Part shown: positions 793-36,201 of the stretch, piece after piece | Position numbering within the stretch: the stretch's first letter is position 1 | How the letters are laid out: each line of letters opens with the position of its first letter | From: an uncultured Methanosarcinales archaeon | Lineage (GTDB): Archaea; Nanobdellota; Nanobdellia; Woesearchaeales; CAZYIM01 | Direction of reading: 5' to 3' | NCBI GenBank assembly: GCA_964647565.1 | Contig: CAZYIM010000027.1 | Coordinates: 1-40,588, forward strand | DNA length: 40,588 nucleotides | Made by a program: the position numbers and the translations under genes | The notes under the pieces: generated by a model | The model's database searches: none | Told to the model about the DNA's origin: nothing | The model's input: the letters and a program-made list of their open reading frames with translations, nothing else

Positions 793-1701
793 TCATTTTG
801 TTATACCCCCATTCGACTTACGCCCATTTTTTCGCTTATTAACTAAGTATATTATTATGTATAAAATAACTGCTAAGACTGTTAGTAATAACGCAACATT
901 ATTACTTTTTGAAATACCAACGAAAGAAAGCAAGGCGGAAAAACCTTTTGTAACCAGTGCTAATACACTTAAATAAAAAATTAAAAGTATACTAGATCTA
1001 ATAATAACGATGGGTGATTTTAGAGATGGATTTTCTTTAAAGAAGGTTTCTTCTCCAAAGATTATTTCTCTAAGCTTATGAAATGCTAGTGAAAAAAAAT
1101 TTTCTACAATATTTTGATTTGTATCCTTTATGTTAATCTCTTCACCAAGTTGAACCTTAGTTGGTTTCTGTGTATCATCAGATGATTTTATTATTAATTC
1201 ACATTTATTGATGTATTCATCAATTATTTCAATAAGTTTAGATTTTACTGATGAAATAATGCGAGAAAGATGGGCGGGAGGAACATGAGCTTGAAAGACA
1301 GGTACATTAAAAACTTCTCTTAGTGCTTGTCCATTTACAGGATTTAGTATCCAGTATGATTCTATATGCTCTTCTATAAATGAAATTTCTTGGCCAACAG
1401 GATATTTTTGTGCGTCTTTTTTGATTTTTTGGTCTTCAATAATTATTGGTCTTTTATACTCATCGTAAAATTGACAATATGTTATTCTATATTCAGGAAG
1501 ATTTTTTTCTAATTCACCAACAGTTTTAAATTTATGATAACCATTTAATTCCAAATCTATCCATTCAAAATTTACTGAATCGTTTAATGATTTTGCAATG
1601 GATCTTACTGTTAGCAATGCTGAACTAATTTTAATCTCATCCTTAATAAGGTCGTCTTTAGTTTGAATTAACTGTTGTATGATTCTAGGATAATTCACCA
1701 T
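793..1701 (-). CDS. Hypothetical protein with a soluble N-terminal domain and two C-terminal TM helices.
   Basis: 302-aa ORF. C-terminal ILLIFYLSVLALV... and VALLLTVLAVILYIIIYLV hydrophobic helices. No motif recognised with confidence. Confidence 0.55.
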   Translation of the reverse strand: MVNYPRIIQQLIQTKDDLIKDEIKISSALLTVRSIAKSLNDSVNFEWIDLELNGYHKFKTVGELEKNLPEYRITYCQFYDEYKRPIIIEDQKIKKDAQKYPVGQEISFIEEHIESYWILNPVNGQALREVFNVPVFQAHVPPAHLSRIISSVKSKLIEIIDEYINKCELIIKSSDDTQKPTKVQLGEEINIKDTNQNIVENFFSLAFHKLREIIFGEETFFKENPSLKSPIVIIRSSILLIFYLSVLALVTKGFSALLSFVGISKSNNVALLLTVLAVILYIIIYLVNKRKNGRKSNGGITK

Positions 1702-3610: not shown

Positions 3611-3877
3611 ATGGAATTTGCTATAGCTAAAGTAAGTACAAAAGGTCAGATAGTAATCCCTAGTTCTTTAAGAGGGGACATACATAGCGGAGACGAATTC
3701 TTAATCGTCAAGGATAATGGAAGAATGATCCTGAAAAACATGAAAAAAGTAGCTAAGGATTTAAAAGAAGATCTTGCCTTTGCAGAGAGGATTGAAAAAG
3801 CCTGGAAAGAACACGATAAAGGTAAGTTTATTACCAAATCCAAGAATGATTTCTTAAAGGAATTAAGAACATGTTAA
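3611..3877 (+). CDS. AbrB/MazE/SpoVT-family antitoxin (swapped-hairpin DNA-binding domain).
   Basis: N-terminal KVSTKGQIVIPSSLR motif typical of AbrB-type looped-hinge domain. Overlaps the downstream toxin gene by 7 nt. Confidence 0.65.
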   Translation: MEFAIAKVSTKGQIVIPSSLRGDIHSGDEFLIVKDNGRMILKNMKKVAKDLKEDLAFAERIEKAWKEHDKGKFITKSKNDFLKELRTC

Positions 3878-4119
3878 CCATTGATTATCACCCTAATTTT
3901 CTAAAGATAATTAGTAAGATTAAAGACTTGACAACCAAAGAGAAAATCAAGAAACAAGTCGAAAAAATAATAGAAGATCCAGAAATTGGCAAACCAATGA
4001 AATATGATCGCAAGGGAACAAGGGAGCTGTATGTTGCACCTTATAGGTTAGCCTATGTATTTATTGCCTCAGAAAATAAAATAATCTTTCTAGACATCTA
4101 TCATAAAGATAATCAGTAG
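3871..4119 (+). CDS. RelE/ParE-family type II toxin.
   Basis: 82 aa. GKPMKYDRKGTRELYVAPYRLAYVF...IIFLDIYHK matches the RelE/ParE core. Operonic with the upstream antitoxin. Confidence 0.7.
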   Translation: MLTIDYHPNFLKIISKIKDLTTKEKIKKQVEKIIEDPEIGKPMKYDRKGTRELYVAPYRLAYVFIASENKIIFLDIYHKDNQ

Positions 4120-5993: not shown

Positions 5994-6733
5994 ACTTTCC
6001 TGCAGACATAGAAAACAGGAGATAGTTTTTTTGTATCATCCTTCTCAATGATATGCTGCTGCCTCATTTCTAAAATCTCAAAGCCAGCAAGGCCGATCAG
6101 CTCCTTTACTTCAGCAATAGTGGGGATGTGGATATATTGCTTCTGTTTATACACATGACCACCTGTCTCCCGATCAAAGAACCTGTCGCCAAACTCAATC
6201 TCATCTATTTTGAAACCGAACGGCTTCAATATAAACATCTTTATCCATTCCCTGACCCAAAGCCAGAAATACCCCTTCCTGATATGCGCTGTAAAGATAA
6301 AGATGCCATCTTTCTTCAGCACCCTATTAACCTCAATCAAAGCCTTCAACCTATTATCACTTCCAGGAATCTGGGACCAGCCATTATTAGAGAACAATGC
6401 AAAATCAAAACTATTTTCATCATACCTAAGATCAGTAGCATCGCCAACAACATAATCTATCTTTAATTTTTTAGTCTTAGCAATCCTTTTAGCACTCTTG
6501 ATCATATTAGGCGTCAAGTCCAGGCCAACAACCTTATATCCCATCTTAAAGAGCGGCATTGTGGTCCTGCCAGTGCCGCAGCCAATATCAAGCACAGAAC
6601 CTTTTTTCTTGAAATACTTCCTAACCGAGATATCTTCAGCCTTCCAAAAACCCTCTTTCGCCTTCTGGGAATAAAACTCCTGTGTCAACTCAGTGCCAAA
6701 CTCGTCGATAACATGTTTCTTAAGATCCTTCAT
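5990..6733 (-). CDS. Class I SAM-dependent methyltransferase.
   Basis: 247 aa. Motif I VLDIGCGTGRTT, then acidic motif II (VVGLDL). Convergent with the paralog pair, 4-nt overlap. Confidence 0.75.
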   Translation of the reverse strand: MKDLKKHVIDEFGTELTQEFYSQKAKEGFWKAEDISVRKYFKKKGSVLDIGCGTGRTTMPLFKMGYKVVGLDLTPNMIKSAKRIAKTKKLKIDYVVGDATDLRYDENSFDFALFSNNGWSQIPGSDNRLKALIEVNRVLKKDGIFIFTAHIRKGYFWLWVREWIKMFILKPFGFKIDEIEFGDRFFDRETGGHVYKQKQYIHIPTIAEVKELIGLAGFEILEMRQQHIIEKDDTKKLSPVFYVCRKV

Positions 6734-12404: not shown

Positions 12405-12650
12405 TCACTTATACACGTTTTTTCTATGATCAAAGCAATTGACTATTATCTTGTTGTTTTCTAATCTATAAATGATCCTAAAGGGAGGGATTCTTGCACT
12501 ACGATGACCTTTGAGGCCATATTTCAAAGGTTTTCCTGATTCTGGGAGTTGTCCTAATTTTTTAATATGCTTAATCAGGTTTAATCTCATGGATTTGTCT
12601 TTAATTTTCTTAAAATCTTTTTTAAACTCTTCAGAAAATATGATCTGCAT
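12405..12650 (-). CDS. RelE/ParE-family type II toxin.
   Basis: 81 aa. GKPLKYGLKGHRSARIPPFRIIYRLENNKIIV is a RelE/ParE core. Directly downstream of the antitoxin gene. Confidence 0.7.
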   Translation of the reverse strand: MQIIFSEEFKKDFKKIKDKSMRLNLIKHIKKLGQLPESGKPLKYGLKGHRSARIPPFRIIYRLENNKIIVNCFDHRKNVYK

Positions 12651-12653
12651 TTT

Positions 12654-12938
12654 TTAGTTTATTAATAAGTCATCAATCTCTTTGTCGTTCATTTTTGTGT
12701 CAGCTTTGATGAATCTGCCTTTTTCGATATCTTCTTCGCTCTTTCTTATTTGGTCTATTAATAGCAGATCTTCTTTTAGAGATTCCTTTTTTATCTGTTT
12801 TAACAATATGTTTCCATCTTGGTTGAACACTAAAAATTGTGTTGATGGTTTTATGTCCGCATCTTTCCTGACTTCTGAAGGGATTACAACCTGCCCATTC
12901 TGGGATATTTTTGTTATTGAAACTTCCATTTGTATCAC
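12654..12938 (-). CDS. AbrB/SpoVT-like antitoxin.
   Basis: 94 aa. ISQNGQVVIPSEVRK AbrB-type N-terminus plus acidic C-terminal tail. 3-nt gap to the toxin. Confidence 0.6.
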   Translation of the reverse strand: MIQMEVSITKISQNGQVVIPSEVRKDADIKPSTQFLVFNQDGNILLKQIKKESLKEDLLLIDQIRKSEEDIEKGRFIKADTKMNDKEIDDLLIN

Positions 12939-15618: not shown

Positions 15619-16944
15619 CTACTTAAACAATCCCTTAAAGAAATTCATAATCTTTACAAAAAGATTTGGTTTGTCATCGTACTCTTTATACTCAACCGTT
15701 AAATTCCCTTGAGAAGGTTCAGTTTCAGGAATTTCTGGTTCAATGTCTTCAGCTGATCCAATCGCATAAAGCCCGCTCCAGCTTCCAACATATATCGTGT
15801 CCTTGCCGATTGCAGGAGAAGAGGCCCAGCCTTTTACATTTGCCCTCCACTTTTCAGTTCCATGGGGATATATTGCAAAAAAGTCTGAGCCATACAGATC
15901 CTTAGAGCCCATATATATTGTCCCGTCTGCACCAATTGCAGGCGAGCAACCACCTTCATCTGGCAGAGCATAGAGCCATTTTACCTTGCCTTCAGGCGAG
16001 ACAGCATACAGGTTCTTATCATCACCTCCAATGTAGATAGTGCCATCAGCTCCAATCGCTGGAGAGCTCCAGACATCAATCGAAGGCCCTAATTGAATCC
16101 ACCATTTTTCTTTTCCATCAGAACTGACTGCGTATAATTTTCCTGCTCTTGTCGAACCAACGTAGATTGTGCCATCTTTTCCAATGGCAGGAGAAGAATC
16201 AGCGAAATCCTCAAATTCAAAAGCCCACTTTCTTTTACCTTTAGGTGTTATTGCATGCAGGTGTTTATCTCCGGATCCTATATATATTGTCCCATCATCT
16301 CCTACTGCAGCAGATGAGCATATATCGCCCCTGGTTGAATAATTCCATAATAGCTTGCCATCAGGACTTAGTGCATACAATTTACCTCGAAAATCATCAT
16401 GCGAACCAACGTAGACTGTTCCATCTTTTCCAATTGCAGGAGAATTCCAGATATCTATAGACAAATCGATCTCATAGCGCCACTTCTCTGTTCCATCAGG
16501 ATTCAGAGCAAAAAGAAGGTCGCTTTGGGATGTGAAATAGATGGTTCCATCTTTTGCAACAGCAGGAGAAGAAAGTATTCCTTTGGTTCCGCTGTATTTT
16601 GCAGTGCCGCTTTGACTATAAACCGGACCATCTCCTACCTGGAAATGCCATTTTTCACTACCATCCGGATTGATTGCATATAATACATTCTGGTGGGATC
16701 CGATGTATATTGTTCCATCAGCGCCGATTGCAGGAGATGATTCCATGCCTTTATCAGATTCAAAAACCCACTTTATCGTGCCGTCAATATGACTGGTATC
16801 ATGTGGGCTAAGACCTGTATTTTTCATATTGCCTCTCCACTTTGACCATGGAGAATCCGCAAGCTGTGCCGAGGCAAGTCCTATTGACACTAAAAAGATT
16901 ATTGCAATCAACCATCTCTTCATATCGATGACCTCTTTTGTCAA
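15619..16944 (-). CDS. Secreted PQQ-repeat (BamB-like) beta-propeller protein.
   Basis: 441 aa. Signal-peptide-like N-terminus MKRWLIAIIFLVSIGLASAQLA. About 8 repeats of the DGTIYIGS...LYA(IV).PDG.EKW pattern. Confidence 0.7.
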   Translation of the reverse strand: MTKEVIDMKRWLIAIIFLVSIGLASAQLADSPWSKWRGNMKNTGLSPHDTSHIDGTIKWVFESDKGMESSPAIGADGTIYIGSHQNVLYAINPDGSEKWHFQVGDGPVYSQSGTAKYSGTKGILSSPAVAKDGTIYFTSQSDLLFALNPDGTEKWRYEIDLSIDIWNSPAIGKDGTVYVGSHDDFRGKLYALSPDGKLLWNYSTRGDICSSAAVGDDGTIYIGSGDKHLHAITPKGKRKWAFEFEDFADSSPAIGKDGTIYVGSTRAGKLYAVSSDGKEKWWIQLGPSIDVWSSPAIGADGTIYIGGDDKNLYAVSPEGKVKWLYALPDEGGCSPAIGADGTIYMGSKDLYGSDFFAIYPHGTEKWRANVKGWASSPAIGKDTIYVGSWSGLYAIGSAEDIEPEIPETEPSQGNLTVEYKEYDDKPNLFVKIMNFFKGLFK

Positions 16945-18635: not shown

Positions 18636-19712
18636 ATGACGAAATATGAAGTTGGTCCGATCAGGCCGCCAAGCGAAGCAAGTAGTCTAATAGTTCGTGT
18701 GACAAGGAACTGTCCCTGGAATCGCTGCACTTTTTGTCCTGTCTATAAAGGCCAGGACTATGAACAAAGAGCTGTCTCTGAAGTTCTTGAGGACATTAAA
18801 AAAAACGCTCCAAGAGTACAAGCAAGTAAGCGTCCATATAAAAGTGTCTTTCTTCAGGATGCAGATCCAATGGGATTGCCAACAGCCGACTTGATACCAA
18901 TTCTAATTGAACTAAGAAAGAATTATCCTACAATCTCCAAAATAACAACCTATGCGCGAACTGCTTCTCTTATAAAAAAATCGCCTGATGAGATCAGAGA
19001 ATTGTATGAAGCTGGTCTGACAAGGATTCATCGGGGTCTTGAGACTGGATACAATCCTTTATTACGATTTGTGAAAAAAGGGACTACAGCAAAATTACAG
19101 ATAAAAGGGGGTAGGCGAGTAAAAGAGGCAGGCATGGAATTAAGCGAATATGTCATGCCGGGCTTAGCTGGAGATTTAATTTTCGATAAACAACCTGCAT
19201 GGAGAAATCATGCTATAGAGACTGCTAATGTATTAAATGAGATCAATCCAGATTTCATTCGATTAAGGACATTGTCCATTTATCCGGGAGATGTCTCGTG
19301 GAATAGGCATAAACAAGAAGGAGTCTCAAGATTGACAGATCAGGATATAGCAAAAGAGATTTATCTTTTTATTGAAAACCTGAATGGAATAACCAGTACA
19401 ATAAAAAGCGATCATAGACTAAACCTATTATGGGAATTAAGAGGTAAACTGCCTAGAGACAAAAATAAGATGCTGGCATTGATAGACCAATACCTTTCTA
19501 TGAAACCAATAGACCAATATGCTTTTAGAATTGGTGCTTTATTAGGAGGGCCAGCCACCTTAGATAGATTTGCAGCTGCTAATGGCGTTCAGCTAATCAC
19601 AGACGATACTAAACCTGCATCAGGAAAAAAAACAGAAGGCATTGAAACTGAAGAAAATGAATATGCCTCCTTAGAGAATCTTGTGCAGGCCCTTCTTACA
19701 ATGGTTGTATAA
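18636..19712 (+). CDS. Radical SAM domain protein.
   Basis: 358 aa. N-terminal VRVTRNCPWNRCTFCPVYKG Cys triad, the same C-x-W-x-[RK]-C-x-F-C pattern (C-x4-C-x2-C) as 1912..3495. Confidence 0.65.
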   Translation: MTKYEVGPIRPPSEASSLIVRVTRNCPWNRCTFCPVYKGQDYEQRAVSEVLEDIKKNAPRVQASKRPYKSVFLQDADPMGLPTADLIPILIELRKNYPTISKITTYARTASLIKKSPDEIRELYEAGLTRIHRGLETGYNPLLRFVKKGTTAKLQIKGGRRVKEAGMELSEYVMPGLAGDLIFDKQPAWRNHAIETANVLNEINPDFIRLRTLSIYPGDVSWNRHKQEGVSRLTDQDIAKEIYLFIENLNGITSTIKSDHRLNLLWELRGKLPRDKNKMLALIDQYLSMKPIDQYAFRIGALLGGPATLDRFAAANGVQLITDDTKPASGKKTEGIETEENEYASLENLVQALLTMVV

Positions 19713-19721
19713 TAGATTCTT

Positions 19722-19768
19722 TTAACCTGCTGAATGTCCTCCCCAGCCTGCTGCGCTCCTATAGCATC
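19722..19768. repeat. 47-bp perfect direct repeat, copy 1 (orphan copy of the 3' end of gene 20392..21540).
   Basis: TTAACCTGCTGAATGTCCTCCCCAGCCTGCTGCGCTCCTATAGCATC is identical to 20392-20438. Confidence 0.9.
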
Positions 19769-19839
19769 TGCTGCTTATGTAATTTTCAATATAACTGATG
19801 TTTTATTTGGAATTAAACGATGTATTACTTAGAGCATAT

Positions 19840-20088
19840 CTATACTTCCCGATAATCATGTTTCCTAAAGAGAATGTCTGCAATAATTATTTGATTTGCT
19901 TTAAGCTCATAGATTATTCGGTATTTGTTTACATGAATTGACCAATATGGATTTGCTTTAAGTTTCTTTCCGAGTGGAGCTCTTAATTCCAGCTTCTGAA
20001 TTTTCTTCCATATTTGTTTCTTTAGTATTTTATCTTCAATTTTAGAAAAAGATTTGTCAAATTGTTCACTAAAAATCAACGTATACAT
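19840..20088 (-). CDS. RelE/ParE-family type II toxin.
   Basis: 82 aa. YWSIHVNKYRIIYELKANQIIIADILFRKH is a RelE/ParE core. 1-nt gap from the upstream antitoxin. Confidence 0.65.
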   Translation of the reverse strand: MYTLIFSEQFDKSFSKIEDKILKKQIWKKIQKLELRAPLGKKLKANPYWSIHVNKYRIIYELKANQIIIADILFRKHDYREV

Positions 20089-20089
20089 T

Positions 20090-20275
20090 TTAACTTAATT
20101 TAGGATGTCTCCTCAGGAACTCAGATTTTGTTAGAAAAGGACCTTTCATTGCCTTTTTTATCTTTCTAAGCTCGTCTTTAGTTAATTCATCAGTCTCAAT
20201 GTAACGATCAAATAAGTCTGCCTTATTTTTAAGCAGATCATATTCTTCTTTTGGTATAATCATAGTTTCAGACAT
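20090..20275 (-). CDS. Putative antitoxin (small helical protein).
   Basis: 61-aa ORF immediately upstream of, and co-oriented with, the RelE gene. Confidence 0.5.
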   Translation of the reverse strand: MSETMIIPKEEYDLLKNKADLFDRYIETDELTKDELRKIKKAMKGPFLTKSEFLRRHPKLS

Positions 20276-20391
20276 TCTTTTTACCTATGTGTATTTGTAA
20301 GGGCTTTATCTATTTAAATTTATCGGGCAGGCGTTCTTGATAAAATATAGATTGGGAGCAAGTTTAAAGATGTTTAAAAAAAATCTAAAAA

Positions 20392-20438
20392 TTAACCTGC
20401 TGAATGTCCTCCCCAGCCTGCTGCGCTCCTATAGCATC
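20392..20438. repeat. 47-bp direct repeat, copy 2 (true 3' end of gene 20392..21540).
   Basis: Identical to 19722-19768. Contains the stop codon (TTA on the plus strand) and the last 15 codons. Confidence 0.9.
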
Positions 20439-21540
20439 CATCTCCATCATAAAACCCGGAGCCTGATGAACGGTATGAGCTGGAAGATGACTTTTTCTCT
20501 TTGGTTGGATCGCCCAATAACTGGGATCTGTTCAGGCCGATCCTTAGCAGTCTTTTATCATATATGCTCACTTTCTCATCTTCAAGCCTGTCATTTATGT
20601 AATTCTCAAATCCTGCTATGGTTCCTGTCTCAAATGCTGGCTTTAATAGTTTCACAGTAATCCTTCCAAGGAGATTTCTGTTTGGGATCGTAATCTTGTC
20701 CAGATGCTCTGCATCCATCCTCTTGTATTCACCAGCCAGGTCTATCTTATGCTTTTTACCATCAAAAGAGCTGTGGCTCACCACAACCAGGTCATCAATG
20801 GATTTGGCATCCAGTTCCCTGATGTGCAGTCTGTCAGGATCTATTATCTGATTAAGGGCTGATGAACCATACTCGCATTTAGCTGGATCTTTAAATTTTC
20901 GTATATAACAAAATCCTGAAGAATAGCTTACATCCAATTTTCTGACTGGGCCCTCTGAGCAGAGTTGCACTGTCTGGAGATCATACTCCCTTATGAACCT
21001 TGGCTCCTGGTTGCGGACAGGAAGTATCTTGATGTTAAAGGTGCAGTTATAGGTCTTGCTATCCCTGCCATCACTAATGATCCTGTCTGTAGAATCTCTA
21101 TAAGACTCATACCAGCTCTTTTTAGATTGATAGTCATCTGATGCCCAATAGTCTTTCTTCTTTTCCATCTTATGCAGTTGCTTGGATAGAATATCCCTTT
21201 TTTTCTCATATTTCAAAAACAATTCTGTCTCCTCTCTGGTTAGGTTGGAGTATTTCATCCTTTCATCCTTCCAGATCTTGGCAGATAAAGCAAACCTATA
21301 ATCCTCTGTCTGGCCCATCATTGCCTCAAGAAGGATATGTGTGCCATATCCAGGGAACTTATAGTTCAGCTTTTCAAGCAGATAGACATTGTGATTGTGA
21401 TATGCACCTTTCTTGGCAGTATTAATGGCTGAACTGATGAAATTATCATGGTCAAACAATTTGTTCCTAAAATAGTCAAATTTTCCTTTTTTCATTTTTT
21501 CTACCTCTGAAAGTTGTTTTCTTTTGGACTGCCTCAGCAA
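20392..21540 (-). CDS. Hypothetical protein with Ser/Gly-rich C-terminal tail (…SSSSSYRSSGSGFYDGDGCYRSAAGWGGHSAG).
   Basis: 382-aa ORF. No recognised domain. Confidence 0.55.
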   Translation of the reverse strand: MLRQSKRKQLSEVEKMKKGKFDYFRNKLFDHDNFISSAINTAKKGAYHNHNVYLLEKLNYKFPGYGTHILLEAMMGQTEDYRFALSAKIWKDERMKYSNLTREETELFLKYEKKRDILSKQLHKMEKKKDYWASDDYQSKKSWYESYRDSTDRIISDGRDSKTYNCTFNIKILPVRNQEPRFIREYDLQTVQLCSEGPVRKLDVSYSSGFCYIRKFKDPAKCEYGSSALNQIIDPDRLHIRELDAKSIDDLVVVSHSSFDGKKHKIDLAGEYKRMDAEHLDKITIPNRNLLGRITVKLLKPAFETGTIAGFENYINDRLEDEKVSIYDKRLLRIGLNRSQLLGDPTKEKKSSSSSYRSSGSGFYDGDGCYRSAAGWGGHSAG

Positions 21541-24006: not shown

Positions 24007-24369
24007 TTATGCTGCTGAAGCAATTAAGGGACTCTTAAAATTAGCATTGGCAAATGCTGGTAATTTTTCCTTGATCACTTCATTATTATGCTTAAATATC
24101 AGAGTAACAATAAAATAATTTCGATAATTTATTACATCCAACTCAACCTCAGTTATACCTTCCAACATATCTTTTGAAATTTTATCATTAACAGTATGTA
24201 AGAATTCAAATGCATCAATTAACTCCAAATTAACTAATTGTTTATTTTTGTCTATATCAATAACTAGATCTTCAGATACTTCAATACTTTCTTTAACATT
24301 TTTTGCAGACCTATAAATAGTTAAAACATCCCCATCTGGATCATATGAAGCACTAAATTTCTCAGTCAT
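24007..24369 (-). CDS. DUF2283-like small protein (antitoxin-like partner of DUF4258 toxins).
   Basis: 120 aa. YDPDGDVLTIY...IEVSEDLVIDIDKNKQLVNLELIDA matches the DUF2283 pattern (YDxExDxLYI...GIEIL). Confidence 0.4.
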   Translation of the reverse strand: MTEKFSASYDPDGDVLTIYRSAKNVKESIEVSEDLVIDIDKNKQLVNLELIDAFEFLHTVNDKISKDMLEGITEVELDVINYRNYFIVTLIFKHNNEVIKEKLPAFANANFKSPLIASAA

Positions 24370-24391
24370 AATAATCTCTAAATACTCCGGG

Positions 24392-24655
24392 TTATTTAAA
24401 TCTTTTCCTATATTTAGTAATTGTCGTTCTTCCTAGTGGAAAAACAGTAATAACTTTAATATTTGAATTAAAAGTTAAAATAAAACATCTGCCTTTAGAT
24501 CCTGAGAAAATGTGATAACACCTATATCTTGTTTCTTTTTTACCTTGAAAATCTACTTCTTGTTTCGCTACAAAAACCAAATCTGTAGAATCGTGAATTT
24601 CAGTTTTCAAATCTTGGATAGTACTTTTATTCCTTTTTTCTAACCAACTTATCAA
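24392..24655 (-). CDS. Small hypothetical protein (possible DUF4258-like toxin partner).
   Basis: 87-aa ORF immediately upstream of the DUF2283-like gene. C-terminal ...IKVITVFP resembles DUF4258. Confidence 0.35.
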   Translation of the reverse strand: MISWLEKRNKSTIQDLKTEIHDSTDLVFVAKQEVDFQGKKETRYRCYHIFSGSKGRCFILTFNSNIKVITVFPLGRTTITKYRKRFK

Positions 24656-24850: not shown

Positions 24851-24905
24851 GTGCTGATCAGATCTTTTTTCTATAATGAAATGCGTATTCATCAAAGTCA
24901 TAGCT
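24851..24905. repeat. 55-bp direct repeat (51 bp perfect plus GTG with 1 mismatch), copy A (orphan copy of the 3' end of GNAT gene 26744..27181).
   Basis: TGATCAGATCTTTTTTCTATAATGAAATGCGTATTCATCAAAGTCATAGCT is identical to 26741-26791. On the minus strand it encodes SYDFDEYAFHYRKKI-stop. Confidence 0.9.
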
Positions 24906-26736
24906 TACATTCCTGGACATGTTTGCACATAAACAAAACAATGTCTCGTTTAATGGGTGCTAAGTTCAATAAGATTTGGAGTCCTAAAAAGATAAAGGGG
25001 TCTGGAAATTTTAGATAAATTCTTAAATAGATAGTTCTCTTTTGTTCATAACATGAATCCAATATTATCAGAAGTAAAATACGTTGTTGAAAATTCAGAA
25101 CACGTCAAAATTAATGTTGATGCCATAAAAACAGTTGTAGATGGTTTTTCCCCTGAAGATAAAGTTCCTTGGACTGACATTCTTCCATTTAAACCACAGA
25201 ATCTAACTAAAAAAGAAAGAATTGCTTTTAATTTTGTATTTAATGCAATTAATTTTTCATATTGGGGAAATCCAAAATGGACAATCAAATACCAAGATAA
25301 AGAATTAGATGGTTCTTGGGCAATGATTGGCTCAATTCATCGTGCGATTGAAGAAGGTTATGATATTTTGAATCCAAAATATCTGATAAATATTAGTGAG
25401 GAAAATTTTGATCATATTTTTCGAGGAAACGTAAAAGTTCCACTTTTTAATGAGAGATTAGAAATCCTTCGAAAACTTGGAAAAATAATATGTTCTGATT
25501 TTAATGATGATTTTGAAAATGTTTTAATAGAATCTAATTATGAATCTGAGAAACTGCTCAATATAATTACTTCTAAATTTGATTTTTTTAATGACTATTC
25601 CCTGTACAAAAATAAAAAAGTGCATTTTCATAAAAGAGCCCAATTACTAATTGGAGATATTTATGAATTATTGCTGGAATTCAAGCAAGAAAGCATAAAA
25701 AACATAAATTTTTTGACTGCTTTTGCTGATTACAAAATACCTCAGATTCTAAGAAAACTTAATGTCTTGGAATATTCTAAAGAGTTAGAAAATTTAATTG
25801 GTAATAAAATAGAGATGGAATCTGGAAATCCGATGGAAGTAGAAATAAGAGCAAATATGATATGGGCAATTGAATTAATTAAAGAAGAAATAAACAAAAA
25901 ATATCCTGAAATTAATTCAATGAATATAGATCACTATTTGTGGATTCTTTCACAAGATAAAAAGAAAGATGATAAACCATATCACCTAACAAGAACTATT
26001 AATTATTAAAAAATTGCAATTTTACTCAGAATTTCTGGCGCAGAGTTTATAAATTAAGCTGAATTCCCCTTGTTTATGGGAATTGATTTTTCAGAATTGC
26101 CTTGGGAAGATCTTGAAGTTGAAGATCATGATTGGCCTGGAGGAAAGTCCATTAAATGGTTGTCTGGCAGAGTAACTATTAATGAATATGGTTATGATAT
26201 AACGGATCGTGTTGAATTATATATACTTCCTGATGGAATTGAATACTTAGCACAACATCCTCAAGCTCTTAATAGTTGGTTAAATGAGGATTTTTTTTGT
26301 CAGAAGAAAAATATCGAGGTCCAACAGCTCTAAGAGGCAGGTATGTTCAACAACTAACTCTAGATGGAGAGGTATTTGCACAAAAAACTTATGGAAATAA
26401 TGATGTCGAAAGCGCATTTAAACAAGCAGGTTTCTATCGAAAATTAGATGAACAACTAGACCCCAGTAATGTAAGAATTCCCAAATTATTCTTTGCTCTG
26501 GAACGGAGATTATTAATGGAACCCTTGTTTGGTTTTCCCAATATTGAGGATCTAAGAATAAAAAGTGGTTCTGATCAAGATATCCTGGCCTTTTTTGACA
26601 AACAAGAAAAACCAGACAAACCTTTAGTTGAAGAAGATGGAATCTACGTACTAAAAGGCAATCCTATTGAAAAATCAGAGTTTATATTGACTGATCCGAG
26701 AGTTAATAACGCTAAAAATTCTTCCAGCATACTAAA
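24906..26736. mobile_element. Very AT-rich (about 27% GC) inserted island bounded by the 55-bp direct repeats. Carries Qng1-like gene plus a frameshifted gene. No integrase inside.
   Basis: Bounded by the direct repeats. Strong compositional contrast with flanks (about 45-50% GC at 33.3 kb). Confidence 0.45.
25053..26009 (+). CDS. Qng1/DUF2419-family queuosine salvage protein (queuosine 5'-phosphate N-glycosylase/hydrolase-like).
   Basis: 318 aa. Blocks AFNFVFNAINFSYW, HKRAQLLIGDIY, AFADYKIPQIL, MEVEIRANMIWAIELIK and IDHYLW align to conserved blocks of Qng1 (…NFSFW…YKRAQILVADTW…MFADYRLPQVL…QEVEIRGCSLWCVELIR…LDYYLW). Confidence 0.75.
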   Translation: MNPILSEVKYVVENSEHVKINVDAIKTVVDGFSPEDKVPWTDILPFKPQNLTKKERIAFNFVFNAINFSYWGNPKWTIKYQDKELDGSWAMIGSIHRAIEEGYDILNPKYLINISEENFDHIFRGNVKVPLFNERLEILRKLGKIICSDFNDDFENVLIESNYESEKLLNIITSKFDFFNDYSLYKNKKVHFHKRAQLLIGDIYELLLEFKQESIKNINFLTAFADYKIPQILRKLNVLEYSKELENLIGNKIEMESGNPMEVEIRANMIWAIELIKEEINKKYPEINSMNIDHYLWILSQDKKKDDKPYHLTRTINY

Positions 26737-26743
26737 GTGTTGA
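26070..26743 (+). pseudogene. Hypothetical gene split into two ORFs (26070..26333 and 26297..26743) at a T8 homopolymer (26291-26298). Frameshifted, slippage-prone, or a sequencing error.
   Basis: Two overlapping ORFs in different frames switch exactly at TTTTTTTT. The second ORF has no ATG (TTG only). Confidence 0.35.
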
Positions 26744-26791
26744 TCAGATCTTTTTTCTATAATGAAATGCGTATTCATCAAAGTCATAGCT
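26737..26791. repeat. 55-bp direct repeat, copy B (true 3' end of the GNAT gene).
   Basis: Matches 24851-24905. Confidence 0.9.
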
Positions 26792-34680: not shown

Positions 34681-36201
34681 TTACCAGCCGCCGACAGAGC
34701 CGCCTCCGCCTCCGCCGCCCCATCCTCCGATAGAGCCGCCTCCGCCTCCACCACCAAAACCGATGTTGGAGCCGCCCATACCAGGGCTACTGAAGATCGT
34801 GGTTGAGGTACTTGTATTCCAGGATGAGCTGGAGCTAGATGTTGACTTGAAGTACTGTGCATTATCGATCTTGTTCCACAGCTGTCTCTTGGTGATCCTG
34901 TCTGCCATGTACCTATCCATCTCTCTTTCGATGTCCAGGTCAGATTCAAAACGGGACCTGCTTGCATCATAGTCATAATCCTCAAAGTCATCAAGCACGT
35001 CCTTCAATCCTGATATATTGCTTGACAGTTCTCTTCGTTTTTCGACCAGTGTCTTGGATTGTTGCCTGTAATCGCCGATGGTCTCATTGATATCGTAAAT
35101 CTTTTCAACAAGCATGTCGTCCTTTCGAGTAGGAGTTTGCTCTGCAATCTCCCTTAACTTTTCAAGTTCGTAACTTCCAAGGACCTTTTTTAATGTTTCC
35201 AACGCCCTTCCAAAATAAGCGCCTTTTGTATCCTGAAGCTTCTCCCTCTGGTCTGCATATTCTCTGTAGAGATTATCTTCATGGGTGATCTTGGCAATCA
35301 CATCGTTTCGCTTGTTGGTCAGGTCATCCATCTCAACTAGGATATTAGTAAGGCCGTGCTTGTCAGATACCTCTTTCTCGTATTCATTCAGCTTTGTGAT
35401 AAAGTTGTCTCTGTATTCCTTTCTATTATTGGTCGCTTCCTCAAGAGTCTTAGGAATATTGATCAGACGCTCATAGCTCTTCTTGGCCTGATCAAAGGTT
35501 ATCTTGTTGCCGTCAGCATCTTTCAAACCTACTTTATTGGCCAGCCATTCATCGCCTTTCTTTAGAAGTCCTTTTCCTTTGTATTCAGCTGATCCAAATT
35601 GCCTCTTGAAATAAAGGTATTTGAAGACCTTGTTGTTCTCAAAGACTTTTTTCTTGGCTTCTACTTTCTCTTTCCACTTATCCAGCCTTTGGACACTCCG
35701 ATCATAGCTCTGCTCTGCCTTTTCAGCATCAAAGACCATGTTGACATAAGTTTTGTTCTTGTCCAGCTCTTCAACAACTGCATTTTGTACTTGCTCCCTG
35801 AGCTTGGATTTTTCATGCAGGACCGTTGACTGCTCTTTTAGCTTGAGCTGCAGATTCTTTTTTGTCTGGTGCGAACTTAGCATGTCTTTCTCGATCTTCT
35901 GCCTGGCTGCCTGTTTCTCCAGATAAAGATTTCGGACTTGCTCTTCTGCCCTCTCAAGCTCTTCCACTTTCTGATCGATATCATCGATACCTTCTGCAGT
36001 CAGCTCTTCAAGATAGACATTGGCTAAATTCCTATAGGTCTCTACCCTGTCTGTCTGCAACCTTCCGATCTTGTTCTCGAATGAGGAGATATCTCTTTTG
36101 AGTCTTGATTCCTTCCTTTCTTCAGCATCAATCCTGCTGTCGATTTCGTCGTAAATATCTGATCCGTAGTAGCTCATTTTATTTCCTCCAGTTGACATCA
36201 C
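34681..36201 (-). CDS. Long coiled-coil protein with C-terminal poly-Gly/Trp tail (GGGGGGGSIGGWGGGGGGGSVGGW).
   Basis: 506 aa. About 430 aa of heptad-like charged helical sequence, then S-rich linker and G-rich tail. Likely true start MSYYGSD (36177), leaving a 1-nt gap to the upstream gene. Confidence 0.6.
   Translation of the reverse strand: MMSTGGNKMSYYGSDIYDEIDSRIDAEERKESRLKRDISSFENKIGRLQTDRVETYRNLANVYLEELTAEGIDDIDQKVEELERAEEQVRNLYLEKQAARQKIEKDMLSSHQTKKNLQLKLKEQSTVLHEKSKLREQVQNAVVEELDKNKTYVNMVFDAEKAEQSYDRSVQRLDKWKEKVEAKKKVFENNKVFKYLYFKRQFGSAEYKGKGLLKKGDEWLANKVGLKDADGNKITFDQAKKSYERLINIPKTLEEATNNRKEYRDNFITKLNEYEKEVSDKHGLTNILVEMDDLTNKRNDVIAKITHEDNLYREYADQREKLQDTKGAYFGRALETLKKVLGSYELEKLREIAEQTPTRKDDMLVEKIYDINETIGDYRQQSKTLVEKRRELSSNISGLKDVLDDFEDYDYDASRSRFESDLDIEREMDRYMADRITKRQLWNKIDNAQYFKSTSSSSSSWNTSTSTTIFSSPGMGGSNIGFGGGGGGGSIGGWGGGGGGGSVGGW

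What the first reader, a model, noticed from the sequence alone, without database searches (positions are those of the whole stretch)
24851..26791. AT-rich island carrying a Qng1 homolog, bounded by a 51-55-bp direct duplication of the GNAT gene's 3' end
A 51-bp perfect repeat (55 bp with one mismatch) at 24851-24905 and 26737-26791 encodes the last 15 codons plus stop of the GNAT gene 26744..27181. The 1.8 kb in between is about 27% GC versus about 40-50% in the flanks. It carries a Qng1/DUF2419 gene and a frameshifted gene. The geometry is the same as the TA-cassette insertion 5 kb upstream: insert downstream of a minus-strand gene, orphan 3'-end copy on the far side.
Basis: seen in the sequence. 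Interest (0 to 1): 0.7.

Follow-up and report, generated by a model that had tools for sequence, protein, structure and literature searches.

The report
Gene cassette inserted behind duplicated gene tail
A small block of imported DNA carrying a queuosine-salvage gene sits just after the end of an acetyltransferase gene in a probable DPANN archaeon, flanked by two copies of that gene's last ~50 bases; the same unusual footprint recurs at two other genes, and no enzyme that could have made it is encoded in the inserts.

Summary
The repeat is real. Window 24851-24905 and 26737-26791 match at 54 of 55 bases, with a 51-base perfect core and sharp edges. The right copy is the stop codon plus the last 15 codons of the GNAT gene. 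Sixteen independent metagenome contigs reproduce the two junctions, so it is not a mis-assembly.

Between the copies lie a full-length Qng1/DUF2419 gene and a 222-aa ORFan. The ORFan is split in the window by a T8/T9 homopolymer polymorphism.

The GC claim is overstated. The insert is 30.3% GC, and only Qng1 is 27%. The immediate flanks are 26-36%, not 40-50%.

A ParE toxin-antitoxin cassette 5 kb upstream has the same geometry, with a 47-base repeat starting at a stop codon. So does a 59-base insert in another Woesearchaeota genome, with a 48-base repeat. Nothing comparable appeared in about 2 Mb of other DPANN/CPR DNA.

No insert encodes an integrase or transposase, and no empty site was found.

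Best reading: integrase-less cassettes captured at gene 3' ends by att-type recombination acting in trans. Live rival: an undescribed integrase that duplicates a fixed ~48-base target.

The parts
24851..24905 (.). Orphan copy of the GNAT gene tail (repeat R_B, left copy). No gene body is attached.
   Evidence: It matches 26737-26791 at 54 of 55 positions. Only 54-55-aa ORFs overlap it, and they were not tested against Pfam.
24906..26736 (.). Inserted segment of 1831 bp at 30.3% GC, carrying two genes and no recombinase.
   Evidence: Contigs L008, L018, L020-L025, L001-L007 and L017 tile both junctions.
25053..26009 (+). Qng1/DUF2419 queuosine-salvage family gene, 318 aa, 26.9% GC, GC3 17.9%.
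   Evidence: PF10343 at 1.6e-79. PDB 7uk3/7u07 at 2e-57 over the full length. It has 80-84% aa and 83% nt identity to Woesearchaeota homologs.
26076..26743 (+). ORFan of 222 aa. In the window it is split into 26070..26333 and 26297..26743 by a T8 run (26291-26298) that is T9 in other samples. Its TGA stop abuts the GNAT stop (TGATCA).
   Evidence: No homologs or families were found. The AF2 model has pLDDT 36.
26737..26791 (.). Gene-attached copy of repeat R_B. It comprises the last 15 codons plus stop of GNAT, plus 3-7 nt beyond the stop.
26744..27181 (-). GNAT N-acetyltransferase of 145 aa, the target gene whose 3' end is duplicated.
   Evidence: Pfam Acetyltransf_1 at 4.9e-16. Homologs occur in Woesearchaeota and CPR.
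19722..19768 (.). Orphan copy of the tail of gene 20392..21540 (repeat R_A). It lies 9 nt after the stop of the radical-SAM gene 18636..19712.
19769..20391 (.). Second insert of 623 bp at 28.9% GC. It is a ParE toxin (19840..20088, -) plus a putative antitoxin (20090..20275, -) with their own upstream region.
   Evidence: PF05016 at 2.3e-08. GC. Junctions are present in L020/L027 and L028.
20392..20438 (.). Gene-attached copy of R_A. It starts exactly at the TAA stop of the 382-aa gene 20392..21540(-).
24007..24655 (-). Left-flank DUF2283-type two-gene cassette (27.6% GC), itself probably mobile. It gives context for the low-GC flank.
   Evidence: PF10049 at 9.9e-11. The same cassette lies next to a different gene in contig L019.

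Best explanation
The 1.8-kb segment is a horizontally acquired two-gene cassette (Qng1 plus an ORFan). It was inserted precisely at the 3' end of the GNAT gene. The recombination event left the gene intact and left two copies of its last ~50 bases, one attached to the gene and one orphaned on the far side.

I read the two copies as attL/attR-type junctions of a Campbell-type integration. In this model a circular DNA carrying a copy of the gene tail recombined with the chromosomal tail. The recombinase was supplied in trans, either by the host or by another element. This matches the 'gene capture' and integrase-less att-flanked elements known in archaea and bacteria.

The ParE cassette at 19.7-20.4 kb, and a 59-nt insert in a second Woesearchaeota genome, are products of the same process.

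Shown: the repeats, their position at stop codons, the cargo, independent assembly support, and the foreign composition of Qng1.

Inferred: the direction of the event (insertion rather than some other rearrangement), the circular intermediate, and the enzyme acting in trans.
For: - The repeats are exact and sharply bounded. One copy completes the ORF.
- The geometry is the standard one for elements integrated in 3'-distal parts of genes. PMC6563490 reports 14 of 68 thaumarchaeal integrated elements in such sites. It also reports crenarchaeal att sites of 29-69 bp with a median of 45 bp, which brackets 47-55.
- Identity ends at the stop codon. This is expected if only the coding tail must be restored.
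- In case B, a perfect 51-nt core is followed by 6 of 9 matches just outside it. This resembles attP/attB pairs more than a freshly filled-in duplication.
- The cargo is accessory and AT-rich. Qng1 has GC3 of 18% and the ParE cassette is 29% GC, against core genes at 41-47%.
- Qng1 is 83% identical in DNA to genes of 26-29% GC relatives, and only over the gene plus or minus 30 nt.
- Both junctions are seen in many samples.
- The event type is rare. There were 3 hits among 6536 ORFs in about 2.06 Mb, all in two Woesearchaeota genomes.
Against: - No integrase, transposase or Cas1 is present in any insert, or in any window ORF of at least 80 aa that was scanned (about 50 in all).
- The inserts are tiny (59, 623 and 1831 nt) and share no genes.
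- The three repeat sequences are unrelated. Each element would therefore need its own copy of a different gene tail.
- The duplicated length measured from the stop codon is nearly constant (47, 48, 48 nt). The att model does not predict this.
- No empty site, circular form or second context of the same cassette with the same repeat was found.
Confidence: 0.4

Rival explanations
1. Fixed-length target-site duplication. An unidentified integrase acts in trans, working like Cas1/casposase with a molecular ruler. It nicks the two strands about 47-48 nt apart at the end of a gene, joins arbitrary DNA to the ends, and gap repair duplicates the intervening segment. The repeats are then made by the insertion itself rather than brought in by the element.
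For: - The duplicated length counted from the stop is 47, 48 and 48 nt in three unrelated targets.
- A 47-nt exact duplication (51 nt allowing one indel) flanks an 87-nt hairpin-bearing insert at a tRNA-Arg gene in a Nanoarchaeota MAG (L101).
- The inserts are heterogeneous in size and content and include a 59-nt piece that could not be an autonomous element.
- The repeats are 100% identical, the junctions show no microhomology and there are no recombinase genes.
- Inserts B and C share the 8-mer TACTAAAG at the gene-proximal end (p about 0.01).
- Casposons show that ruler-type integration at gene 3' ends exists in archaea.
Against: - No prokaryotic element with a duplication of about 48 bp appears in the casposon and thaumarchaeal-element papers I consulted, where casposon duplications are 15 bp; my own recollection agrees.
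- There are no terminal inverted repeats and no Cas1.
- The real repeat in case B is 51-55 nt, not 48, with mismatches clustered at one end.
- Exact anchoring at the stop codon needs an unexplained target recognition.
- The sample is only three or four cases.
Confidence: 0.3
2. Recombinase-independent capture. Foreign or sister-strain DNA entered by homology-facilitated illegitimate recombination, by Campbell integration of a circularised fragment through host RadA using a short stretch of homology, or by replication template switching. The duplication is a by-product.
For: - It needs no element-encoded enzyme, which is consistent.
- The cargo is ordinary accessory DNA.
- GNAT and Qng1 each sit in unrelated contexts in related genomes, showing high gene flux.
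Against: - Such events give variable junctions, usually with microhomology. Here the edges are sharp and lack microhomology.
- The edges are anchored at stop codons and the lengths are nearly the same in three cases.
- The 59-nt insert is hard to explain as captured homologous DNA.
Confidence: 0.17
3. Assembly or scaffolding artefact: a k-mer-sized duplication, or a collapsed mixture of an empty chromosome site with a small circular DNA.
For: One similar-looking case, L084, is such an artefact: an exact 55-nt duplication flanks a run of 100 N. The third case (L029) rests on a single assembly.
Against: - Both junctions of the island and of the TA cassette are reproduced at 99.9-100% identity in 16+ contigs. 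These come from JGI and ENA assemblies of different samples, made with different pipelines.
- The repeat lengths (47, and 51/55 with a fixed mismatch) do not equal a common k.
- There are no N runs.
- The repeats start at stop codons.
Confidence: 0.03

Closest known systems
Archaeal integrated elements inserted in 3'-distal regions of genes by tyrosine recombinases (thaumarchaeal elements, PMC6563490; crenarchaeal 'gene capture', from my own knowledge of She et al. 2001-2004)
   Same: Direct repeats of about 45-55 bp flank foreign AT-rich DNA. One repeat restores the target gene's 3' end and the other is an orphan. Identity stops at the end of the gene.
   Different: Known elements are 5-70 kb and carry an integrase plus replication or viral genes. 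Here the inserts are 0.06-1.8 kb with one or two cargo genes and no recombinase. The targets are three unrelated protein genes with nearly the same duplicated length.
Integrase-less att-flanked elements mobilised in cis or trans (the CIME elements at the fda 3' end in Streptococcus, and cargo-only satellites of tycheposons; both from my own knowledge, not checked here)
   Same: Small cargo modules are bounded by att repeats derived from a gene's 3' end and depend on an integrase encoded elsewhere.
   Different: Those share the att sequence of a known parent element and sit at its single target. Here no parent element or common att sequence is visible.
Casposons and Cas1-mediated integration
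   Same: They insert at the 3' end of genes (tRNA-Pro, ef-2). The duplicated segment has a fixed length set by the enzyme. Arbitrary DNA can be integrated in vitro.
   Different: The casposon duplication is 14-15 bp and requires terminal inverted repeats, and the element encodes Cas1 and PolB. None of these is present here.
Integron gene cassettes
   Same: They are small one- or two-gene units, often toxin-antitoxin pairs and acetyltransferases, inserted by an integrase acting in trans.
   Different: The repeats contain no attC-like folded site. There is no shared recombination site, no IntI and no co-oriented array. Integron insertion also does not duplicate a gene tail.

Membership tests
Qng1 / DUF2419 queuosine-salvage family (PF10343) | Full-length match to the family profile above the curated cut-off | tested here: met
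   The score is 267.9 bits against a cut-off of 25, covering profile positions 6-285 of 285.
Qng1 / DUF2419 queuosine-salvage family (PF10343) | Sequence similarity over the whole length to solved DUF2419 enzymes | tested here: met
   7uk3 and 7u07 match at 2e-57, covering residues 4-318.
Qng1 / DUF2419 queuosine-salvage family (PF10343) | Queuosine-5'-phosphate glycosylase activity | not testable with these tools
   The substrate in an archaeon, which should lack queuosine in tRNA, is unknown.
GNAT acetyltransferase (target gene) | Acetyltransf_1 domain above the cut-off | tested here: met
   The score is 59.5 bits against a cut-off of 20.7.
Recombinase-integrated mobile element (attL/attR) | Direct repeats flank the element, and one of them completes the target gene | tested here: met
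Recombinase-integrated mobile element (attL/attR) | An integrase gene lies inside the element | tested here: not met
   The inserts contain only Qng1 plus an ORFan, or ParE plus an antitoxin. No recombinase family hit appeared in any window ORF that was scanned (about 50 ORFs).
Recombinase-integrated mobile element (attL/attR) | An unoccupied site with a single repeat copy exists in related genomes or populations | tested here: inconclusive
   All contigs that reach the sites are occupied. No syntenic relative was found in the genome or metagenome collections.
Recombinase-integrated mobile element (attL/attR) | Composition differs from the host genome | tested here: met
   Qng1 has GC3 of 18% and the TA insert is 29% GC, against core genes at 41-47%. 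The immediate flanks are also AT-rich.
Casposon / Cas1-type transposon | Terminal inverted repeats, Cas1 and PolB genes, and a 14-15-bp target duplication | tested here: not met
   No inverted repeats lie at the insert ends. There are no Cas1 or PolB hits. The duplication is 47-55 bp.
Integron cassette | A folded attC recombination site at the cassette end, and IntI nearby | tested here: not met
   The repeats do not fold better than shuffles, with z from -0.7 to +1.2. There is no integrase in the window.
Diversity-generating retroelement (template/variable repeat at a gene 3' end) | A reverse transcriptase, and adenine-specific differences between the two repeats | tested here: not met
   No RT hit was found. 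The repeats are identical apart from one C/T outside the GNAT ORF.
ParE/RelE type II toxin (second insert) | ParE_toxin domain above the cut-off, with a small upstream partner gene | tested here: met
   PF05016 scores 34.9 bits against a cut-off of 23. A 61-aa ORF lies 1 nt upstream.

The most novel reading that the evidence does not exclude
DPANN archaea may possess an undescribed insertion machinery. It would place arbitrary DNA, from 59-nt hairpin pieces to 1.8-kb gene cassettes, exactly behind the stop codon of a gene while duplicating a fixed ~48-nt stretch of the gene tail. This would be a ruler-type, Cas1/casposase-like staggered integration with by far the longest target duplication known in prokaryotes. 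The enzyme would be encoded elsewhere in the genome.
Probability: 0.3. Interest if true: 0.8.

Novelty: new variant of a known kind. Interest (0 to 1): 0.55.

Why it matters
DPANN archaea have tiny genomes, and how they gain genes is poorly understood. This window shows at least two recent gene gains: a 7-deazapurine salvage enzyme and a toxin-antitoxin pair. Both carry a clean, repeated molecular footprint that leaves the neighbouring gene intact and needs no cassette-encoded enzyme.

If the footprint comes from att-type capture, it documents integrase-less mini-cassettes in DPANN. If it comes from a fixed-length target duplication, it points to a new class of integrase.

The footprint is a stop-anchored duplication of about 48 nt. 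It is simple enough to search for across all archaeal genomes, which makes the question directly testable.

Tried and rejected
**Empty-site search**
- Exact-protein look-ups for GNAT, Qng1, both left-flank genes, the radical-SAM gene and the 382-aa gene gave only occupied sites or nothing.
- A 34-mer of the repeat found nothing in metagenome contigs.
- The Lrp-like neighbour found no relative in genome contigs.
- The radical-SAM neighbour found only relatives of 47% identity or less, without synteny, in metagenome contigs.
- The 75%-identical GNAT homolog sits in an unrelated context.

**Search for an older, decayed orphan copy**
- The best match to the repeat left of the island is 25 of 51, which is no better than shuffles.
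- No degenerate orphans appeared at a threshold of 36 of 48 matches in about 2 Mb.

**Extended homology beyond the repeats**
- None was found.

**Function of the 222-aa ORFan**
- There were no Pfam or NCBIfam hits.
- The word search found no homologs.
- Full HMMER found three weak hits without domains.
- The structure model had pLDDT 36, so no fold search was run.

**Viral or plasmid origin**
- Both repeats, Qng1 and ParE were absent from viral contigs.

**Other readings rejected**
- DGR, integron, casposon and IS readings were rejected. There is no RT, attC, Cas1, terminal inverted repeat or transposase.
- Shared sequence motifs among the three repeats are only marginal. B versus C gives 23 of 48 in-register matches, p about 0.01, and A is dissimilar.
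- Rfam and tRNA scans of the window were empty.
Full report
**1. The observation**

The window contains a direct repeat at 24851-24905 and 26737-26791. It is 55 nt long with one mismatch. The perfect core is 51 nt (24855-24905 / 26741-26791), and a weaker extension reaches 60 nt at 95% identity.

Local alignment of 400 nt around each copy returns only these 55 nt. In-register identity falls to background within 10-20 nt on both sides. A 51-nt exact repeat cannot arise by chance in 40.6 kb.

The right copy is the 3' end of the minus-strand GNAT gene 26744..27181 (Acetyltransf_1, 4.9e-16). It comprises the stop codon TCA (read as TGA on the minus strand) at 26744-26746, the last 15 codons, and 3-7 nt beyond the stop.

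**2. Content of the segment between the copies**

- Qng1 lies at 25053..26009(+). It matches PF10343 at 1.6e-79 across the whole profile. It matches solved DUF2419 structures at 2e-57 across the whole length.
- The two overlapping ORFs 26070..26333 and 26297..26743 are one gene of 222 aa. Contigs L001 and L017 have T9 where the window and L002-L004 have T8 at 26291-26298. This is a homopolymer polymorphism seen in several samples.
- The 222-aa protein has no family hit and no word-level homolog in 5.8 billion proteins. It has three weak HMMER hits in 1.84 billion representatives. Its structure model is unusable at pLDDT 36.
- Its TGA stop (26741-26743) abuts the GNAT stop, forming TGATCA.

**3. 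It is not an artefact**

- Exact-protein look-ups returned independent contigs from at least a dozen samples, from JGI and from ENA study sets SUTE22 and SCRA20.
- L008, L018 and L020-L025 cross the left junction.
- L001-L007 and L017 cross the right junction.
- All are 99.9-100% identical to the window, and all carry the same single mismatch between the repeat copies.
- None shows an unoccupied site.

**4. Composition**

| Region | GC |
|---|---|
| Whole window | 38.4% |
| Insert 24906-26736 | 30.3% |
| Qng1 | 26.9% (GC3 17.9%) |
| ORFan | 34.9% |
| Left-flank DUF2283 gene pair | 27.6% |
| 195-nt spacer | 25.6% |
| Right flank (GNAT, HEPN, NTase, 397-aa gene) | 34-36% |
| Core-like genes | 41-47% (GC3 44-57%) |

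The whole 24.0-29.9 kb stretch is a flexible, AT-rich region. The window as a whole is rich in toxin-antitoxin (TA) and defence modules. These include AbiTii, three ParE pairs, a DUF2283 pair and a HEPN/NTase pair.

**5. Origin of Qng1**

- Its nearest relatives are 80-84% identical in protein. One is a named Woesearchaeota MAG.
- They sit in 26-29% GC contigs.
- DNA identity is 83%. It covers only window 25023-26017, which is the gene plus or minus 30 nt.
- The neighbours of Qng1 differ in every relative examined.
- Unameliorated low GC3 in a 38% GC genome argues for recent import from a low-GC Woesearchaeote.
- The best named GNAT homolog is also from Woesearchaeota. I infer that the window comes from a DPANN archaeon. 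The window has no rRNA or tRNA to confirm this.

**6. The geometry recurs**

- **Case A.** A 47-nt perfect repeat lies at 19722-19768 and 20392-20438. It flanks a 623-bp, 28.9% GC insert with a ParE toxin and a small partner gene. The gene-attached copy starts exactly at the TAA stop of the minus-strand 382-aa gene. The orphan copy lies 9 nt after the stop of the convergent radical-SAM gene. Both junctions are in JGI contigs L020/L027 and L028.
- **Case C.** This case is in L029 (GCA_050187915.1, Woesearchaeota), which was reached through its Qng1 homolog. A 48-nt perfect repeat lies at 6538-6585 and 6645-6692. It starts exactly at the stop of a minus-strand PD-(D/E)XK/Cas4-like gene. It encloses only 59 nt, which fold into two hairpins (z = -3.65).
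- Measured from the outer edge of the stop codon, the duplicated lengths are 47, 48 and 48 nt. The island in the finding is case B.

**7. How unusual it is**

- I scanned the window plus 190 fetched loci, about 2.06 Mb. These hold 6536 stop-to-stop ORFs of at least 80 codons. The loci are mostly DPANN and CPR genomes found with a Qng1 alignment, plus metagenome contigs found with the radical-SAM gene.
- The scan looked for copies of each gene tail within 6 kb downstream.
- Only the three cases above qualify.
- The other hits have simple explanations: a 55-nt duplication around a 100-N scaffold gap (L084), a 73-nt tandem duplication (L149), tandem repeats (L089), a short 16-nt match (L112) and paralogs (L040, L082, L160).
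- No degenerate, older orphans were seen. Either the events are recent or the orphans are lost quickly.
- One related-looking structure does not involve a stop codon. In L101 (Nanoarchaeota), a 47-nt exact duplication (51 nt with one indel) covers the 5' part of tRNA-Arg plus its upstream flank. It encloses an 87-nt insert with a strong hairpin.

**8. What is absent**

- No integrase, transposase, Cas1, PolB or reverse transcriptase hit appears in the inserts or in any window ORF that was scanned (about 50 in all).
- There are no terminal inverted repeats at the insert ends.
- The repeats do not fold.
- There is no microhomology at the junctions.
- The repeats and cassettes have no match in viral contigs.
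- The three repeat sequences are unrelated overall. B and C share 23 of 48 in-register positions (p about 0.01). Their inserts share the 8-mer TACTAAAG at the gene-proximal end (p about 0.01). A shares only TTTAG there. These similarities are marginal.

**9. Mechanism**

Two models fit the geometry.

*Model (a): att-type, Campbell integration.*
- DNA carrying a copy of the gene tail recombines with the chromosomal tail, with the recombinase supplied in trans.
- This is the established explanation for such repeats. Archaeal att sites of 29-69 bp (median 45) and integration into 3'-distal parts of protein genes are documented (PMC6563490).
- It explains why identity ends at the stop codon.
- It also explains why case B has a perfect core with partial similarity just outside it.
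- It does not explain the absence of any integrase from three tiny, unrelated inserts, the 59-nt insert, or the near-constant length.

*Model (b): fixed-length target-site duplication.*
- An integrase in trans with a ruler of about 48 nt would act by analogy with Cas1/casposase. That enzyme integrates at gene 3' ends and duplicates a fixed segment, but only 15 bp and with terminal inverted repeats.
- It explains the constant length, the perfect identity, the heterogeneous inserts and the lack of element-borne enzymes.
- It has no precedent at this length in the papers I consulted or to my knowledge.
- It needs an unexplained recognition of the stop-codon boundary.
- It fits case B less well, because that repeat is 51-55 nt.

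*Other models.* Recombinase-independent capture (homology-facilitated illegitimate recombination, or template switching) is less likely, given the sharp, anchored, equal-length junctions.

*Probabilities.* I give att-type capture 0.40, ruler-type duplication 0.30, recombinase-independent capture 0.17 and artefact 0.03. The remainder is unassigned.

**10. Consequence for the cell (inference)**

- The insertion leaves GNAT intact.
- It adds a complete Qng1 gene with 147 nt of its own upstream sequence.
- Archaea are not known to carry queuosine in tRNA (my own knowledge). The enzyme here more likely salvages a 7-deazaguanine base for archaeosine synthesis or a related use.
- The family is widespread in DPANN and CPR organisms.

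**11. Verdict**

The composition argument is overstated. The insertion reading is well supported but not proven by an empty site.

The recurring footprint is a stop-anchored duplication of about 48 nt around integrase-less mini-cassettes. It is a new variant of att-flanked integration. There is a substantial chance that it reflects a new integration mechanism.

Noticed in passing
window 29918-32290 (-): A 790-aa protein carries Major Vault Protein domains (MVP_shoulder at 3.9e-28, plus Vault_3 and Vault_4). It has the highest GC in the window (47.5%). An MVP-like protein in a probable DPANN archaeon is unusual.
   Followed up: no
L029 6538-6692 (GCA_050187915.1, Woesearchaeota): A 48-nt perfect duplication of the tail of a PD-(D/E)XK/Cas4-like gene starts at its stop codon. 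It encloses a 59-nt insert that forms two hairpins (z = -3.65). This is a third instance of the footprint, but it rests on one assembly only.
   Followed up: partly
L101 13307-13487 (Nanoarchaeota MAG): A 47-nt exact duplication (51 nt with one indel) covers the first 22 nt of tRNA-Arg(TCG) plus 25 nt upstream. It encloses an 87-nt insert with a 9-bp-stem hairpin. It has a similar length and small insert, but at a tRNA 5' end.
   Followed up: partly
L019 1-162 versus window 24628-24655: In a 631-bp ENA contig, the DUF2283-type two-gene cassette (window 24168-24654) sits behind a different gene, which looks like a class IV aminotransferase C-terminus. Homology to the window starts 28 nt before that gene's stop. 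The window cassette may therefore still carry a fragment of a former target gene's tail.
   Followed up: partly
window 26291-26298: A T8/T9 homopolymer polymorphism splits or restores the 222-aa ORFan. T9 is seen in contigs from 2 samples, and T8 in the window and at least 3 other samples.
   Followed up: yes
window 793-1701, 3611-4119, 12405-12938, 19840-20275, 24007-24655, 27257-28296: The density of defence and toxin-antitoxin modules in 40 kb is very high. They include AbiTii, three ParE pairs (two with MazE-type partners), a DUF2283 pair and a HEPN/nucleotidyltransferase pair. All have below-average GC. Only the 19.8-kb cassette has flanking repeats.
   Followed up: partly
L084 8236-8445 (Woesearchaeota MAG): An exact 55-nt duplication flanks a run of 100 N. 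This is most likely an unmerged k=55 contig overlap at a scaffold gap. It mimics the footprint and is a caution for any automated survey.
   Followed up: yes
L029 243-1612: In the closest named relative, Qng1 lies directly after a nucleoside 2-deoxyribosyltransferase-like gene (PF05014, weak hit). This hints at a nucleoside or base salvage pairing.
   Followed up: no
L060 13761-19919; L114 179-1137 and 6023-6080: Short sequences of 28-58 nt are dispersed and repeated upstream or downstream of several small genes in two DPANN contigs. They look like promoter or terminator elements and are unrelated to the gene-tail duplications.
   Followed up: no
window 15904-16738 and 34684-34755: There are seven ~125-nt internal repeats in a beta-propeller (PQQ-like) gene. 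There is also a Gly-rich coding repeat in the 506-aa gene 34681..36201.
   Followed up: no
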